A DNA stretch of 17,684 bases, taken from a virus (taxonomy: Duplodnaviria > Heunggongvirae > Uroviricota > Caudoviricetes). The notes below the pieces were generated by a model. The model was not told the origin of the DNA and did not search any database. It saw nothing but the letters and a program-made list of their open reading frames with translations. The first letter of the stretch is position 1, and every line of letters starts with the position of its first letter. Positions 1-15,235 of this stretch are shown here, one piece after another. The position numbers and the translations under genes are program-made. Location: the IMG/VR virus record IMGVR_UViG_2667527666_000002, positions 1 to 17,684 of that record; one strand, 5' to 3'.

Positions 1-1254
1 ATGCTGGAACAAATGGGCATTGCCGCGAAGCAAGCCTCGTATAAATTAGCGCAACTCTCCAGCCGCGAAAAAAATCGCGTGCTGGAAAAAATCGCCGATG
101 AACTGGAAGCACAAAGCGAAATCATCCTCAACGCTAACGCCCAGGATGTTGCTGACGCGCGAGCCAATGGCCTTAGCGAAGCGATGCTTGACCGTCTGGC
201 ACTGACGCCCGCACGGCTGAAAGGCATTGCCGACGATGTACGTCAGGTGTGCAACCTCGCCGATCCGGTGGGGCAGGTAATCGATGGCGGCGTACTGGAC
301 AGCGGCCTGCGTCTTGAGCGTCGTCGCGTACCGCTGGGGGTTATTGGCGTGATTTATGAAGCGCGCCCGAACGTGACGGTTGATGTCGCTTCGCTGTGCC
401 TGAAAACCGGTAATGCGGTGATCCTGCGCGGTGGCAAAGAAACGTGTCGCACTAACGCTGCAACGGTGGCGGTGATTCAGGACGCCCTGAAATCCTGCGG
501 CTTACCGGCGGGTGCCGTGCAGGCGATTGATAATCCTGACCGTGCGCTGGTCAGTGAAATGCTGCGTATGGATAAATACATCGACATGCTGATCCCGCGT
601 GGTGGCGCTGGTTTGCATAAACTGTGCCGTGAACAGTCGACAATCCCGGTGATCACAGGTGGTATAGGCGTATGCCATATTTACGTTGATGAAAGTGTAG
701 AGATCGCTGAAGCATTAAAAGTGATCGTCAACGCGAAAACTCAGCGTCCGAGCACATGTAATACGGTTGAAACGTTGCTGGTGAATAAAAACATCGCCGA
801 TAGCTTCCTGCCCGCATTAAGCAAACAAATGGCGGAAAGCGGCGTGACATTACACGCAGATGCAGCTGCACTGGCGCAGTTGCAGGCAGGCCCTGCGAAG
901 GTGGTTGCTGTTAAAGCCGAAGAGTATGACGATGAGTTTCTGTCATTAGATTTGAACGTCAAAATCGTCAGCGATCTTGACGATGCCATCGCCCATATTC
1001 GTGAACACGGCACACAACACTCCGATGCGATCCTGACCCGCGATATGCGCAACGCCCAGCGTTTTGTTAACGAAGTGGATTCGTCCGCTGTTTACGTTAA
1101 CGCCTCTACGCGTTTTACCGACGGCGGCCAGTTTGGTCTGGGTGCGGAAGTGGCGGTAAGCACACAAAAACTCCACGCGCGTGGCCCAATGGGGCTGGAA
1201 GCACTGACCACTTACAAGTGGATCGGCATTGGTGATTACACCATTCGTGCGTAA
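1..1254 (+). CDS. proA: Gamma-glutamyl phosphate reductase (glutamate-5-semialdehyde dehydrogenase), complete 417 aa
   Basis: Full-length ORF from ATG at 1 to TAA at 1252-1254; translation matches the ProA/aldehyde dehydrogenase family over its whole length; position immediately upstream of tRNA-Thr matches the proBA-thrW arrangement of E. coli. Confidence 0.95.
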
Positions 1255-1260
1255 ATAAAA

Positions 1261-1320
1261 CCGGGTGATGCAAAAGTAGCCATTTGATTCACAAGGCCAT
1301 TGACGCATCGCCCGGTTAGT
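1261..1320 (+). terminator. Candidate proA terminator: 11-bp stem (1261-1271 with 1305-1315, one G-U pair) around a long loop, followed by TTAGTTTT
   Basis: Inverted repeat ccgggtgatgc / gcatcgcccgg seen directly, T-rich tail 1316-1323. The loop is long (33 nt) and may contain the thrW promoter, so the call is weak. Confidence 0.25.
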
Positions 1321-1368
1321 TTTAACCTTGTCCACCGTGATTCACGTTCGTGAACATGTCCTTTCAGG

Positions 1369-1444
1369 GCCGATATAGCTCAGTTGGTAGAGCAGCGCAT
1401 TCGTAATGCGAAGGTCGTAGGTTCGACTCCTATTATCGGCACCA
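1369..1444 (+). tRNA. thrW: tRNA-Thr, anticodon CGU, with encoded CCA end
   Basis: 76-nt cloverleaf-compatible sequence GCCGATATAGCTCAGTTGGTAGAGC...GGTTCGACTCCTATTATCGGCACCA; anticodon loop TT-CGT-AA; T-arm GGTTCGA present. Confidence 0.93.
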
Positions 1445-8425: not shown

Positions 8426-9316
8426 TCAGGCTGCCAGATCATCGTTTCCGATGGAAGCATAATAAGCTTTTTCTGCTTCTGCCGGAGGAGTATGGCCCAG
8501 CCTTTCCAGCAATCGTCGATTGTTATACCAGTCCACCCACGTGAGTGTGGCCAGTTCCACTTCTGCACGGTTTTTCCAGCTCTTACGGTGTATTACCTCC
8601 GCTTTGTAAAGACCATTGATGCTCTCCGCCATCGCGTTGTCATACGAGTCGCCTGTACTTCCTGTTGATGCCAGTAATCCGGCTTCCTTAAGCCGCTGTG
8701 TGTAGGCCAGCGATACATACTGAGAACCTTTATCACTGTGATGGACCGTGCCGGACGGTCGACGGGCCCATAACGCCTGCTCCAGTGCATCCAGCACGAA
8801 TGTCGTTTCCATGGACGATGAGACCCGCCACCCCACGATGTATCCGGCAAACACATCAATGATGAACGCCACATAGACGAAGCCCCGCCATGTGCTGACG
8901 TAAGTAAAATCAGCCACCCACAGCTGGTCAGGTCGTTCTGCCACGAACTGACGGTTTACGCGGTCGCCTGCGGCAACGGCTTTCCGGCTGATGGTCGTAC
9001 GGACCTTTTTACCCCGGAGAACACCGGCAAGTCCCATAACCGCCATGAGACGTGCCACAGTGCATCTGGCCACTCTGATACCTTCCCGTAACAACTGACG
9101 CCAGACTTTACGCACACCGTATACCTTGTGATTTTCATCGTATACGCGCTGTATCTCTTTCTTCAGCCAGTCATCGCGCTGCGCACGGGCACTGCGTTTA
9201 TCCGGATGATGTCGCTGTTGCTGACAGTGGTAATACGTTGACGGGGCAATATGCAGTTCGCTGCATAGCGGTCCGACCCCGTACTGCTCACGCAGCTTAT
9301 CCAGCAGTGGCATCAT
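8426..9316 (-). CDS. IS629-like transposase OrfB (DDE/integrase catalytic domain), 296 aa
   Basis: Translation [29 protein letters not shown]... with a DDE-type core (WVADFTYV ... HSDKGSQY ... [10 protein letters not shown]). Confidence 0.9.
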
Positions 9317-9639
9317 TTTTTCCAGAGGCGGTCGAACTCCGCCTTCGCAAAATAAGCGGAAGCCTGGCGAAGGATATCGTTACTGCGGCGCAGTTCACGA
9401 TTTTCACGTTCCAGCTCTTTCAGACGCTGACGTTCAGCGGTGGTGAGCCCTCCATCACCGCCCCCGGTATCCCGCTCATGCTGGCGAACCCAGACACGCA
9501 GAGTCTCCGGCGTACAGCCAATCTTTGGAGCAATGGAACAAATTGTCGCCCATTGTGAGTCATATTCGCTCTGACTTTCCAGAACCATACGGACTGCCCG
9601 TTGACGGACTTCGGGGGAAAAACGAGTATTTTTAGTCAT
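9313..9639 (-). CDS. IS629-like transposase OrfA (HTH), 108 aa
   Basis: Translation [42 protein letters not shown]...; identical to the orfA of the second copy at 17358-17684. Confidence 0.9.
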
Positions 9640-11777: not shown

Positions 11778-12773
11778 GTGACCGTGAGAGCACTACTGAC
11801 CCCTGAAATTGCCCCGCGTATGGGGATCGTATTGTTCAGGCCAGGTTCAGAGCTGATGCCCCTGTTTATGCAGGGGCGTGTCCTGCTGGAGCCTGAGCCG
11901 GAACGTTATTCATCTTTTGCCAGTGGTGCCGTTCCGGCTGCATCACAACCGCTGGCGGATGATCCTGCCGTTCGGGCCGTGTTCCGCAATGAGGCAGTGA
12001 TCCGTCGTGCTGGTGGCGTGGAATGTCTTGAAAGCTGGTTACTTCGTGAAAAAGGCTGCCAGTGGCCTCATTCCGACTGGCACAGCGAGAACATGACCAC
12101 AATGCGACACGCGCCGGGCGCAATCCGTCTGTGCTGGCACTGCGATAACCAACTGCGCGATCAGTTCACGGAACGGCTGGAATCAATGGCAACGGATAAC
12201 TGTGCCCGCTGGGTGTTGTCTGTTGTGCGTCGGGATCTCGGTTTTGATGACAGTCACGTTGTGACAATGCCGGAACTGTGCTGGTGGCTGATTCGTAATG
12301 ATCTGGCGGATGCCTTACCGGAAAGTGCAGCCCGTAAGGCACTGAGATTACCGAAGCCTGTTGTGCCGTCTGTCACCCGGGAAAGTGACCTGGTGCCTTC
12401 GGTTCCTGCCACCAGCATCATCCAGGATAAAGCGAAAAAGGTGCTGGCGCTGAAAGTGGATCCGGAGTCGCCGGACTCTTTTATGTTACGCCCAAAACGT
12501 CGCCGCTGGGTTAATGAAAAGTACACGCGATGGGTTAAGACGCAGCCGTGCGCATGTTGTGGAAAACCTGCTGATGATCCCCACCACCTGATAGGCCACG
12601 GTCAGGGTGGAATGGGGACAAAAGCGCATGACCTCTTTGTGTTGCCTTTGTGCAGAAAGCATCACGACGAGCTGCATGCGGATAATGTGGCATTCGAAGA
12701 GAAGTATGGCTCCCAGCTGGAGCTGATATTTCGTTTTATCGATCGTGCGCTGACGATTGGTGTGCTGGCCTGA
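11778..12773 (+). CDS. DUF968-like nin-region protein, 331 aa, with C-terminal Cys/His (HNH-like) cluster
   Basis: C-terminal motif [43 protein letters not shown]; exact start uncertain (GTG at 11778 or 11784). Confidence 0.65.
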
Positions 12774-12790
12774 TTTTGTGGAGAAAGTTG

Positions 12791-13174
12791 ATGCGTGATA
12801 TTCAGATGGTTCTTGAGCGTTGGGGAGCGTGGGCGGCTAATAATCATGAAGATGTGACCTGGTCGTCCATTGCCGCCGGTTTTAAGGGATTAATTCCTTC
12901 AAAAGTAAAATCTCGCCCGCAATGTTGTGACGATGACGCGATGATCATTTGCGGGTGCATGGCCCGTCTGAAAAAGAACAACAGCGATTTGCACGATTTA
13001 TTAGTAGATTATTATGTAGTCGGTATGACATTCATGTCACTGGCAGGTAAGCATTGCTGCTCTGATGGTTATATCGGGAAAAGGTTACAAAAAGCTGAGG
13101 GCATAATTGAAGGGATGTTAATGGCATTAGATATCTGGTTAGAGATGGATATCGTTGTTAATAACTCTAATTAA
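12791..13174 (+). CDS. Q: Late-gene antitermination protein Q (short Q family), 127 aa
   Basis: Start at the ATG at 12791 with GGAG 8 nt upstream (the ORF track's 12776 start is a TTG); last gene of the nin-like block, in the position Q occupies upstream of the lysis cassette. Confidence 0.7.
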
Positions 13175-13207
13175 TATGCCAATTGTTTACTAAAAATTAT
13201 TAAAAAT

Positions 13208-13225
13208 GGGGCGTTGAGACGCCCC
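13208..13225 (-). terminator. Candidate intrinsic terminator for the porin gene (stem GGGGCGT / ACGCCCC, 4-nt loop, followed on the minus strand by AUUUUUAAUAAUUUUU)
   Basis: Hairpin and U-rich tract read directly; lies about 140 nt beyond the porin stop, after three further hairpins. Confidence 0.4.
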
Positions 13226-13363
13226 CAAAAATAAAGGGTAATATATAACAGAAGGTTTATATAGTTAGAAGCAAGGTTGTGCTTCTAAAGGAAGTGGCTT
13301 GAGGGAGCCACTTATATGTTGGGGAGGCAACGCCTCCCGCAACATATCTTTTTCGTAATCAGA

Positions 13364-14446
13364 TTAGAACTGGTAAACCAGACCTACAGCAACGATGTCA
13401 TCAGTATCAATACCAGCTGTTTTGGTAAACTTACTATCGTCAATTAAGTTGATTTTGTAATCAACAAAAGTGGACATGTTTTTATTAAAGTAGTAAGTAG
13501 CACCGACATCGACATACTTGACTAAGTCTCGGTCACCATGAACACCAAGGTCTTTACCTTTTGACTGAAGGTAAGCAACAGATGGGCGCAGACCGAAGTC
13601 AAACTGATATTGTGCTACTGCTTCAAAGTTTTGTGCTTTGTTTGCAATATGGTTATTACCAAAAACGGTCATATTCTGAGTTTCAGAATATGTGGTAGCC
13701 AGATAGATATTGTTCGCATCATATTTCAGGCCTGCAGCCCATACTTCCGCATTTTTGCCGGAGGCATTGAATTTGCTCTTACCATAGGCGACCTGACCGT
13801 CAGTGCGATCTGATTTAGCATAGGTTGCACCCACGCCGAATCCTTCATACTCATAAGTAGTGGAGAAACCGAAACCATCACCATTGGCTTCAGTTACGTC
13901 AGTGCGGTCATTTTTACCCTGATACTGAGCAGCAAAGTTCAGGCCATCGACCAGACCAAAGAAGTCGTTGTTACGATAAGTTGCAACACCAGTAGTGCGA
14001 CCAGTCATGAACACATCTGTTTGGGTCCAGGTATCACCACCGAATTCTGGCAGGACGTCAGTCCACGCACCGATGTCGTATGCTACACCGTAGTTACGGC
14101 CGTAATCGATTGAGCCGTAATCACCAAATTTCAGGCCTGCAAATGCAAGACGGGTTTTGTCTTTGGAAGAACCTTGAGATTCAGCGCGGTTGCCTTTGAA
14201 TTCATATTCCCACTGACCGAAACCAGTCAGTTGATCGTTGATTTGGGTTTCACCTTTGAAGCCAAGACGGGCATAAGTAGTATCACCATCATCTGCATCA
14301 TTAGAGGAGAAGTAGTGCTTAGCATTAACTTTCCCGTACAGATCCAGCTTGTTACTGTCTTTATTATAAATTTCAGCTGCCTGAGCAGACATCGCCATCA
14401 GTACTGATGCAGCTACAGCAGAAATTGCCACTGTTAATTTTTTCAT
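13364..14446 (-). CDS. General-diffusion outer-membrane porin, OmpC/NmpC/Lc family, 360 aa precursor
   Basis: Signal peptide ending AQA-AE; mature N-terminus [17 protein letters not shown] typical of OmpC-family porins; C-terminal ...VGLVYQF beta-barrel signature; opposite strand to flanking phage late genes. Confidence 0.92.
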
Positions 14447-14874
14447 CGTGAGCCCTTTTTTTTGAACTATTATTAAAAAATGATGTCACTGCGCGATAAA
14501 TATTCATCTAATCAATGTGATTATTTCAAGATGTAAGTTTTGGTTTCTCGTTTGATTTGTGAAGTAGATCTCTATTTTTATCTGAACTTTTTTCTATCGA
14601 ATCCTATTCATAGCTCTTGGCTGAATAAAAATAAATCTATTAGCCAATTTATACTAACGGTTGTTATTTATAAGTGCTCTATAATTTGAAGGTTCAATTT
14701 AAATCGGCTAAAAATAACACTGGAAATTATTTGTTGGTTATTTGTTGAGATTTGCTTATGTATTTGTAGTGGTGTTTTCAATACTCGGTAGCATTCTCGC
14801 AAATATCATTTAGTGGTTTACGTACGTAAAAAATTGGTTATGCTGTTAAGAGTGGTTACTTCGTCACACAGCTT

Positions 14875-14908
14875 AAACCCGCCGTCGAGCGGGTTTTTCC
14901 ATTTTTTG
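14875..14908 (+). terminator. Intrinsic terminator (8-bp stem AAACCCGC / GCGGGTTT, then TTTTTCCATTTTTT), candidate tR' about 115 bp upstream of the holin gene
   Basis: Perfect stem followed by a T-rich tract on the plus strand; no plus-strand gene ends upstream, consistent with a short terminated late-promoter leader transcript. Confidence 0.6.
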
Positions 14909-15019
14909 AGTCTCGATATTAGCTGATAACCCAATACCTGAGTTATTCACTGACTTCGAGTCTGTTACGTTTCGTAGTATTCCCTCAATTTACACCCGCT
15001 TTGTCTGCGAGGTGGGGTT

Positions 15020-15235
15020 ATGAAATCCATGGATAAGTTAACAACGGGTGTCGCCTATGGCACCTCAGCAGGTAGTGCCGGGTACTGGTTTTTACAGCTG
15101 CTAGATAAAGTCACGCCCTCACAGTGGGCGGCAATTGGAGTGCTGGGTAGCCTGGTATTTGGCCTGCTGACGTACCTGACAAACCTTTATTTCAAGATTA
15201 AAGAAGATAAGCGTAAGGCTGCGAGAGGTGAATAA
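15020..15235 (+). CDS. S: Phage-21-type class II holin (pinholin), 71 aa
   Basis: Two predicted TM helices with the glycine-zipper-like [10 protein letters not shown]; basic C-terminus [11 protein letters not shown]; stop overlaps the endolysin start (TAATG). Confidence 0.9.

What the first reader, a model, noticed from the sequence alone, without database searches (positions are those of the whole stretch)
13175..13363. Array of four consecutive 7-9-bp hairpins between Q and the porin gene
Within 190 bp there are four perfect stems (13208-13225, 13265-13288, 13292-13313, 13322-13338) at fairly regular spacing. Only the first has a U-tract, on the minus strand, which fits a porin terminator; the other three are not explained by termination in either direction. 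They may be Q-utilisation or pause elements, RNA stability determinants, or protein-binding dyads insulating the lysogenic-conversion gene.
Basis: seen in the sequence. Interest (0 to 1): 0.45.

Follow-up and report, generated by a model that had tools for sequence, protein, structure and literature searches.

The report
IpeX: phage porin 3'UTR small RNA
The hairpin cluster is the already-described IpeX small RNA, the structured tail of a prophage porin mRNA that shuts down the host's own porins; here it also proves to carry a conserved stretch complementary to the ompC and ompF ribosome-binding regions, which the literature says does not exist.

Summary
The 189-bp Q-porin spacer holds five perfect stems of at least 7 bp; 2000 shuffles gave at most two. 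It is not a new element: window 13200-13366 (minus strand) is 167/167 identical to the E. coli K-12 DLP12 small RNA gene ipeX, and the spacer is identical to the sequence downstream of phage PA-2 lc. IpeX is the 3'UTR of the prophage porin mRNA and is reported to repress OmpC and OmpF. Three hairpins and the terminator are supported by compensatory changes in lambdoid, E. albertii and P1/P7-type phages. G.U wobbles favour the porin-sense strand. The element travels with the porin gene, not with Q. The Q-utilisation idea fails: the pR'/qut/terminator homologue of Stx phages, whose Q is 78% identical, lies at 14816-14898, beyond the porin. One result goes beyond the literature. The conserved unpaired stretch between hairpin P3 and the terminator is complementary to the ompC leader at -32..-2 (27 bp, -26.7 kcal/mol), as strong as MicC-ompC. 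The P7 variant matches the ompF start region as well as MicF does. The phage's own porin leader is spared. Reviews state that IpeX does not base-pair. Identity is certain; the antisense mechanism is inferred.

The parts
13200..13366 (-). IpeX small RNA, which is the 3'UTR of the prophage porin mRNA, from the UAA stop codon to 8 nt past the terminator stem
   Evidence: 167/167 identical to NC_000913.3 574365-574531. Those are the ipeX mature-transcript coordinates in PMC8313858 supplementary file 1. The spacer is 100% identical to phage PA-2 downstream of lc (H52). The covariance model R1 matches only here in the window.
13314..13347 (-).
   Evidence: Six of its 15 pairs show changes on both sides across lineages; the L124 class and P7 have entirely different inner stems that still pair.
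13292..13313 (-).
   Evidence: Two pairs are compensated in P7, and a U.G wobble occurs in L006. The loop sequence is kept in P7, which was found independently by blastn; E. albertii has CCCUUA.
13265..13288 (-).
   Evidence: Three pairs are compensated, and G.U wobbles occur in three sequence types.
13228..13262 (-). Conserved, largely unpaired core (IpeX nt 105-139: AUAUAAACCUUCUGUUAUAUAUUACCCUUUAUUUU), the proposed antisense seed against the ompC/ompF translation-initiation regions
   Evidence: The duplex with E. coli ompC -32..-2 is -26.7 kcal/mol, z = -4.5, with 0/1000 shuffles as low. Only 2 of 54,546 background windows are as low, and both are ompC-type leaders. The sequence is invariant in 20 lambdoid variants. 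IpeX nt 128-142 is listed as the INTERFACE 'likely-functional region' in PMC8313858.
13242..13263 (-). Weak all-A/U hairpin predicted by energy only; probably not a conserved structure
   Evidence: It has uncompensated C.A mismatches in the L094-type and L124 sequences and is absent in P7. It overlaps the seed.
13197..13225 (-). Intrinsic terminator P5: 7-bp G+C stem 13208-13225 plus a U-tract
   Evidence: Terminator scan. The stem is kept, with U.G and G.U wobbles and a compensated variant in P7.
13364..14446 (-). Porin gene (Lc/NmpC/OmpC-like, 360 aa) whose transcript carries IpeX
   Evidence: Pfam Porin_1 E = 1.9e-151. Annotated as porin in homologous records.

Best explanation
The hairpin array is IpeX, the 167-nt structured 3' untranslated tail of the prophage porin (lc/nmpC-type) mRNA, read on the minus strand and ended by the intrinsic terminator at 13208-13225. 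Identity, strand, conserved secondary structure (P1, P2, P3, terminator) and linkage to the porin gene rather than to Q are shown here. That IpeX is made from the porin transcript, is processed, and lowers OmpC and OmpF is taken from the literature. The following is inferred. The conserved A/U-rich stretch between P3 and the terminator (13228-13262) acts as a MicC/MicF-like antisense seed. It pairs with the Shine-Dalgarno region of host ompC (-32..-2) and, more weakly, of ompF, and so blocks translation. The phage porin's own leader lacks the site and escapes. The lysogen therefore swaps its porins, removing a phage receptor. Hairpins P1-P3 most likely give the processed RNA a protected 5' body, and they protect the porin mRNA's 3' end against exonucleases.
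For: - **Identity:** 167/167 to K-12 ipeX and 100% to PA-2. A match is present in 2504 of 5426 complete E. coli genomes.
- **Structure:** z = -9.2. On the model-based alignment 97% of cells pair, against 41-48% when partners are slid, and 11 of 39 pairs change on both sides.
- **Strand:** 10 G.U cells in the porin sense against 1 that would be G.U on the other strand. The U-tract is on the minus strand only.
- **Linkage:** the same array follows nmpC in P7, between ssb and nmpC, with no Q gene.
- **Antisense core, ompC:** -26.7 kcal/mol, z = -4.5, 0/1000 shuffles, equal to the MicC-ompC control at -26.5.
- **Antisense core, P7 variant:** -31.0 kcal/mol against ompF, z = -4.9, compared with MicF-ompF at -27.4.
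- **Specificity:** ompA, phoE and the phage's own porin leader are at background level. This matches the OmpC/OmpF targets named in reviews; that OmpA is unaffected I recall from the abstract of Castillo-Keller et al. 2006.
- **Unbiased scan:** 19 of the top 55 of 54,552 windows are porin leaders, where 0.4 are expected. The structure-plus-sequence model on its own also hit the antisense of porin leaders.
- **Accessibility:** the 3' half of the core is predicted unpaired (P = 0.71) and coincides with the accessible region found experimentally.
Against: Reviews citing the original study say no complementarity to ompC exists and that IpeX does not act by base-pairing (PMC3617542; PMC10690425; PMC12197685). 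I could not read the original paper. The minimal active fragment may not include the core. The ompF duplex of the lambdoid variant is unremarkable (z = -1.6; 0.7% of background windows are as low). Cofolding of full-length RNAs discriminates poorly: ddG is -16.5 for ompC and -11.9 for ompA. The 5' half of the core can be sequestered in a weak A/U hairpin. The complementarity could be an inert relic of an inverted porin leader. Background windows and orthologous leaders are not independent, so the enrichment P-value is inflated.
Confidence: 0.8

Rival explanations
1. IpeX acts as the literature states, without base-pairing. The hairpins, for example the conserved CCCUCA loop of P2, would titrate a protein or another RNA needed for porin mRNA translation or stability, and the complementarity of the core would be incidental.
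For: Statements in PMC3617542, PMC10690425 and PMC12197685. IpeX is described as Hfq-independent in PMC8313858. The P2 loop is kept between the lambdoid and P7 lineages while the stem covaries.
Against: The core-ompC duplex equals the validated MicC-ompC control and is exceeded by 0 of 1000 shuffles and by only 2 of 54,546 genomic windows. The core is the most conserved part of the RNA. The P7 variant retunes to ompF. The P2 loop is not invariant: it is CCCUUA in E. albertii.
Confidence: 0.3
2. The hairpins are only transcription terminators or insulators between the convergent Q and porin units: P5 for the porin, and P1 plus CUUUUU for rightward transcripts. They would have no function in trans.
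For: A minus-strand terminator is present. The extended P1 stem is followed by CTTTTT on the plus strand. The plus strand also folds well (z = -6.95).
Against: Two terminators do not explain P2, P3 or the conserved unpaired core. The plus-strand T-run is not kept in P7 or L124. G.U asymmetry favours the minus strand. Published genetics assigns a trans effect to this very sequence.
Confidence: 0.08
3. The hairpins are Q-utilisation, pause or late-promoter elements (a pR'-qut-tR' module like the lambda 6S RNA region).
For: Position immediately downstream of Q, and a spacer of about 190 bp, similar to the lambda pR'-tR' distance (the lambda distance is from memory).
Against: No promoter-like site lies in the spacer. 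The homologue of the annotated late promoter, qut and terminator of VT2-Sakai, whose Q is 78% identical, is at 14816-14898. The array also occurs in P7 without Q.
Confidence: 0.02
4. The dyads are DNA binding sites for a protein (a repressor or nucleoid protein) that insulates the cargo gene.
For: Dyad symmetry alone.
Against: The stems differ in sequence from one another. Stem sequences change while pairing is kept, which is the signature of RNA rather than of a DNA motif. G.U-type changes are strand-specific.
Confidence: 0.02

Closest known systems
IpeX small RNA of cryptic prophage DLP12 / phage PA-2 (Castillo-Keller, Vuong and Misra 2006, J Bacteriol 188:576; cited)
   Same: Same sequence (167/167), same position between the porin stop codon and its intrinsic terminator, and the same Q-porin-holin neighbourhood.
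   Different: Here the porin gene is intact, whereas in K-12 it is cut by IS5. Upstream of about 13405 the porin is a different allele from nmpC/lc. The published mechanism is 'no base-pairing', whereas I find a strong antisense core.
MicC and MicF, trans-acting antisense small RNAs encoded next to the porin genes ompN and ompC
   Same: Each is a porin-linked RNA that represses a different porin. The IpeX core shares GUUAUAU...CCUUUAUU with the MicC 5' end and UUAUNUAUUACC with MicF. It covers the same ompC and ompF sites with equal predicted energy.
   Different: No Rfam MicC or MicF match. The seed is internal rather than 5'-terminal. IpeX sits in the 3'UTR of the porin mRNA rather than in a divergent gene with its own promoter. 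It has three extra hairpins and is carried by phages.
3'UTR-derived small RNAs that share the terminator of their parent mRNA (for example CpxQ, SroC, MicL; class named from general knowledge)
   Same: The RNA runs from the stop codon to the mRNA's own terminator. An A/U-rich seed lies just upstream of the terminator hairpin. It is reported to be processed from the longer transcript.
   Different: Reported as Hfq-independent for ompC. It has an unusually large structured 5' body.
Lambdoid pR'-qut-tR' late-control module (annotated in VT2-Sakai)
   Same: Lies downstream of a Q gene and contains hairpins.
   Different: Opposite functional strand, no promoter, and the true homologue is elsewhere in the window (14816-14898).

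Membership tests
IpeX (DLP12/PA-2 porin 3'UTR small RNA) | Sequence identity to the annotated K-12 ipeX transcript | tested here: met
   167/167 identical to NC_000913.3 574365-574531.
IpeX (DLP12/PA-2 porin 3'UTR small RNA) | Lies between the stop codon of an nmpC/lc-type porin gene and its Rho-independent terminator, on the porin strand | tested here: met
   Porin stop codon at 13364-13366. Terminator stem at 13208-13225 with a minus-strand U-tract.
IpeX (DLP12/PA-2 porin 3'UTR small RNA) | Made as part of the porin transcript and processed to about 167 nt | not testable with these tools
   Literature only. No promoter-like site was found inside the spacer.
IpeX (DLP12/PA-2 porin 3'UTR small RNA) | Lowers OmpC and OmpF but not OmpA | not testable with these tools
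   OmpC and OmpF as targets come from the literature; that OmpA is unaffected is my recollection of the 2006 abstract. The predicted duplex energies follow the same order: ompC -26.7, ompF -18.6, ompA -10.8.
MicC / MicF Rfam families | Match to the family covariance model | tested here: not met
   No Rfam hit with E up to 1 in 12600-15200 apart from a chance Trp_leader match at a terminator.
MicC / MicF Rfam families | Extended complementarity to the ompC or ompF translation-initiation region | tested here: met
   27 bp with ompC -32..-2. The P7 variant pairs with ompF -15..+9 and beyond. Energies equal those of the MicC and MicF controls.
MicC / MicF Rfam families | Independent gene with a 5'-terminal seed, divergent from a porin gene | tested here: not met
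   The seed is at nt 105-139 of an RNA that is the 3'UTR of the porin mRNA.
Lambdoid pR'-qut-tR' module | Late promoter and Q-utilisation site immediately downstream of Q, on the Q strand | tested here: not met
   No promoter-like site in 13175-13363. The homologue of the VT2-Sakai promoter/qut/terminator is at 14816-14898.
Lambdoid pR'-qut-tR' module | Co-occurs with the Q gene | tested here: not met
   The array follows nmpC in phage P7, next to ssb, with no Q.

The most novel reading that the evidence does not exclude
Contrary to the accepted view, IpeX is a classical antisense regulator. A conserved internal seed, combining MicC-like and MicF-like sequence, pairs with the ribosome-binding regions of host ompC and ompF. 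Different phage lineages have tuned it differently: lambdoid phages mainly towards ompC, P1/P7-type phages towards ompF. The phage's own porin mRNA is exempt. The porin gene and its 3'UTR would then form a self-contained 'porin replacement' cassette that moves between unrelated phages.
Probability: 0.6. Interest if true: 0.55.

Novelty: already known. Interest (0 to 1): 0.35.

Why it matters
As an element it is ordinary: a published prophage small RNA, present in almost half of complete E. coli genomes. The value lies in three results.

- **Structure.** The analysis gives a covariation-supported secondary structure, and a covariance model, for an RNA that has no Rfam family.
- **Mobility.** The RNA belongs to a mobile porin cassette shared by lambdoid and P1-like phages.
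- **Mechanism.** It offers a concrete, testable explanation for a roughly 20-year-old oddity, an sRNA said to repress porins without base-pairing. If confirmed, this would place IpeX with MicC and MicF. It would show how a phage swaps the host's surface porins, which are receptors for other phages and entry routes for antibiotics, using a single transcript.

Tried and rejected
- **Rfam:** a scan of 12600-15200 at E up to 1 found no family for the spacer. The only hit was a chance Trp_leader match on the terminator at 14875-14896.
- **RefSeq annotation:** NC_000913.3 lists no ncRNA in the quuD-nmpC spacer, so the ipeX coordinates had to come from a paper's supplement.
- **Original paper:** the IpeX paper (PMID 16385048, PMC1347279) is not held. 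What it says is known only through reviews and my memory of the abstract.
- **Pattern scan:** a gapped pattern scan of genome contigs found nothing.
- **Porin-based fetch:** the fetch from genome contigs showed that chromosomal OmpD/OmpC-type porins of other genera have no IpeX-like 3'UTR. Only E. coli L205 and E. albertii L223 do.
- **Viral contigs:** the first fetch gave 80 identical porins and little diversity.
- **Ascertainment bias:** the second viral-contig set was retrieved with a pattern that fixes the P2 loop. Loop conservation in that set is therefore by construction and was not used as evidence.
- **Alignment:** MAFFT misaligned the P7 hairpins by one register, so the model-based alignment was used instead. 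That alignment leans towards the model.
- **A/U hairpin:** the stem at 13242-13263 was rejected as a conserved structure because its mismatches are uncompensated.
- **Energy calculations:** duplexfold on full-length RNAs is meaningless. Cofolding discriminates poorly.
- **MicC/MicF membership:** rejected.

Full report

The interval 13175-13363 is exactly the spacer between two convergent genes. One is a Q-family antiterminator gene (12791-13174, plus strand; Pfam Phage_antitermQ E = 4.5e-53). The other is a porin gene (13364-14446, minus strand; Porin_1 E = 1.9e-151).

The fourth extends through a one-base bulge to 13314-13347. A fifth, all-A/U stem lies at 13242-13263.

The spacer holds five perfect stems of at least 7 bp. 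The window as a whole averages 0.21 per 189 nt. In 2000 dinucleotide-preserving shuffles the mean was 0.10 and the maximum 2, and no other part of the window has three or more. Folding energy is far below that of shuffles on both strands: z = -9.2 on the minus strand and -6.95 on the plus strand. The only consensus intrinsic terminator is on the minus strand, at 13225->13208.

**2. What is it?**

The window is a lambdoid prophage next to tRNA-Thr(CGT). It carries an integrase, a cI-like repressor, Cro and CII, Q, the porin, holin, lysozyme and Rz.

The stretch 13100-13405 is 99.7% identical to the quuD-nmpC spacer of the DLP12 cryptic prophage of E. coli K-12. It is 100% identical to the sequence downstream of lc in phage PA-2. 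A match occurs in 2504 of 5426 complete E. coli genomes.

That spacer encodes the published small RNA IpeX ('inhibitor of porin expression'; Castillo-Keller et al. 2006). [quoted passage not shown] A supplement gives the K-12 coordinates as NC_000913.3 574365-574531, reverse strand, 167 nt. These map to window 13200-13366, and the two sequences are identical at 167 of 167 positions.

Rfam has no family for it, and RefSeq does not annotate it in K-12. This is probably why it looked unexplained.

**3. Anatomy and comparative support**

I collected variants from three sources: phage genomes, IMG/VR contigs and one genome per species. They fall into four lineages:
- close lambdoid variants, 92-100% identical;
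- a divergent lambdoid class (L124);
- E. albertii (L223);
- P1/P7-type phages, about 70% identical.

In P7 the array lies between ssb and nmpC. No Q gene is nearby. The element therefore travels with the porin gene, not with Q.

By eye and in alignments, P1, P2, P3 and the terminator keep their pairing while their sequences change. For example, the inner P1 stem is CGGGAGGC/GCCUCCCC in the window and GAGAAGG/UCUUCUC in L124.

I built a covariance model from 20 lambdoid variants (R1). It recovers P7 at E = 8e-15. On the model-based alignment of 22 distinct sequences:
- 97% of cells form standard pairs, against 41-48% when partners are slid by 1-3 columns;
- 11 of 39 pairs show changes on both sides, against 0-3 when slid.

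This alignment is fitted to the model, so the figures lean towards the structure.

One-sided changes are almost all G.U in the porin sense. There are 10 such cells, against 1 that would be G.U on the other strand. Together with the minus-strand U-tract, this identifies the functional molecule as the minus-strand RNA.

The A/U hairpin at 13242-13263 is not supported. It has uncompensated C.A mismatches and is absent from P7.

Among chromosomal porin loci of 80 enterobacterial species, only E. coli and E. albertii carry the element.

**4. The Q-utilisation idea**

The Q protein here is 78% identical to the Q of VT2-Sakai, the 933W type. In VT2-Sakai the annotated late promoter, 'Q-utilization' site and first terminator directly follow Q. 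Their homologue in this window lies at 14816-14898, between the porin start and the holin gene. It includes the terminator at 14875-14896.

The porin gene plus IpeX is therefore a cargo cassette inserted between Q and its site of action. The hairpins are not qut or pause elements. No promoter-like site lies in the spacer.

**5. Mechanism**

This part goes beyond the literature and is inference.

The model search unexpectedly gave weak hits antisense to the 5' leaders of chromosomal porin genes. Following this up, the most conserved and least structured part of IpeX is nt 105-139 (window 13228-13262), AUAUAAACCUUCUGUUAUAUAUUACCCUUUAUUUU. It is complementary to the E. coli ompC leader from -32 to -2. 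The pairing has blocks of 9, 15 and 3 bp and covers the Shine-Dalgarno sequence.

Predicted duplex energies, with z-scores against shuffles of the small-RNA core:

| Pair | Energy (kcal/mol) | z |
|---|---|---|
| IpeX core (window) - ompC | -26.7 | -4.5 (0/1000 shuffles as low) |
| MicC - ompC (control) | -26.5 | -3.2 |
| MicF - ompF (control) | -27.4 | -4.0 |
| IpeX core (window) - ompF | -18.6 | -1.6 |
| IpeX core (window) - ompA | -10.8 | about 0 |
| IpeX core (window) - phoE | -8.6 | about 0 |
| IpeX core (window) - own porin leader | -12.3 | -1.4 |
| P7-type core - ompF | -31.0 | -4.9 |
| P7-type core - ompC | -25.1 | -2.8 |

In a scan of 54,546 sixty-nucleotide windows from 553 kb of enterobacterial DNA, only two reach -26.7, and both are ompC-type leaders. 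Of the top 55 windows, 19 are porin leaders, where 0.4 are expected. These windows are not independent, so the P-value is inflated.

The core shares GUUAUAU...CCUUUAUU with the 5' end of MicC and UUAUNUAUUACC with MicF.

The P7-type core differs at a few positions and includes the complement of the start codon. A 40-nt version gives -23.8 kcal/mol against ompF, reached by 1 of 54,552 background windows.

This order of strengths fits what is reported. OmpC and OmpF are the repressed porins. As I recall from the abstract of the 2006 paper, OmpA is not affected, and the effect on ompC, but not on ompF, is independent of Hfq.

The 3' half of the core is predicted to be mostly unpaired (P = 0.71). 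It coincides with the in vivo accessible 'likely-functional region', nt 128-142, listed in PMC8313858.

[quoted passage not shown] P1-P3 would serve as a stable structured body and 3'-end protection. The apical loop of P2 (CCCUCA, complementary to UGAGGG) may be a second contact, but it is not invariant.

**6. Conflict with the literature**

Three reviews state that IpeX has no complementarity to its targets or does not act by base-pairing. One speaks of base-pairing-dependent regulation without detail. No paper in the searchable library reports the pairing I describe. I could not read the original article, so I cannot exclude two possibilities: that the active sub-fragment lacks the core, or that the pairing was seen and dismissed.

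Cofolding of full-length molecules keeps P1-P3 and the terminator and uses the core for pairing with ompC. However, the energy gain discriminates poorly between ompC (-16.5) and ompA (-11.9). I put the antisense mechanism at about 0.6.

**7. Verdict**

The finding is a real, strongly non-random feature, but it is an already known element. Interest as a discovery is low. The testable antisense model, the covariation-backed structure and the link to P1-type phages add moderate value.

Noticed in passing
window 14816-14898 (+): This is a homologue (about 78% identity) of the annotated late promoter, Q-utilisation site and first terminator of phage VT2-Sakai, with an intrinsic terminator at 14875-14896. 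The late-control region therefore sits 1.6 kb from Q, separated from it by the porin cassette. The short pR' transcript ending here would correspond to the StxS small RNA of Stx phages; that link is from memory.
   Followed up: partly
window about 13405, inside the porin 3' end: There is a mosaic joint here. IpeX and the last 42 nt of the porin gene are identical to K-12 nmpC and PA-2 lc. Upstream of 13405 the similarity to both ends: K-12 has IS5 there, and the PA-2 match ends at the same point. The 94%-identity class of phages aligns throughout. This suggests that porin alleles are exchanged by recombination against a conserved 3'UTR.
   Followed up: partly
L024 3590-4300 (IMGVR_UViG_2563366891_000011): An insertion of about 700 bp lies between the porin stop codon and hairpin P1 of IpeX. 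It carries a 169-aa ORF that looks like an IS200/IS605-type transposase; this is judged by eye from the translation and was not scanned. The insertion would uncouple IpeX from the porin transcript.
   Followed up: partly
window 13300-13305 (minus strand loop CCCUCA): The apical loop of hairpin P2 is identical in the lambdoid and P7 lineages although the stem covaries. It is complementary to UGAGGG, which is the ompF Shine-Dalgarno sequence and also occurs in the upstream part of the ompC leader (about -58 to -53). In E. albertii the loop is CCCUUA. It may be a second, kissing-loop contact.
   Followed up: partly
window 13314-13352 (+): On the plus strand the extended P1 stem is followed by CTTTTT. 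It could act as a weak terminator for rightward transcripts leaving Q. The T-run is reduced or absent in the L124 and P7 variants.
   Followed up: partly
window 8426-9639 (-): An IS3-family transposase lies inside the prophage early region. ORF 8426-9316 matches the rve and HTH_21 domains; the adjacent upstream ORF 9313-9639 was not scanned. The prophage may therefore be defective.
   Followed up: no
window 1-1444: The prophage abuts tRNA-Thr(CGT) at 1369-1444, downstream of an aldehyde-dehydrogenase-family gene (1-1254, proA-like), with an integrase gene at 1742-2596. This is the thrW attachment region rather than the argU site used by DLP12 in K-12; the site assignments are from memory.
   Followed up: partly
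L285 585-677 and L290 1622-1732 (K-12 micF, micC): Three porin genes each have a linked antisense RNA aimed at a different porin: ompC-micF, ompN-micC and lc/nmpC-ipeX. The IpeX core looks like a fusion of the MicC and MicF seed sequences.
   Followed up: partly
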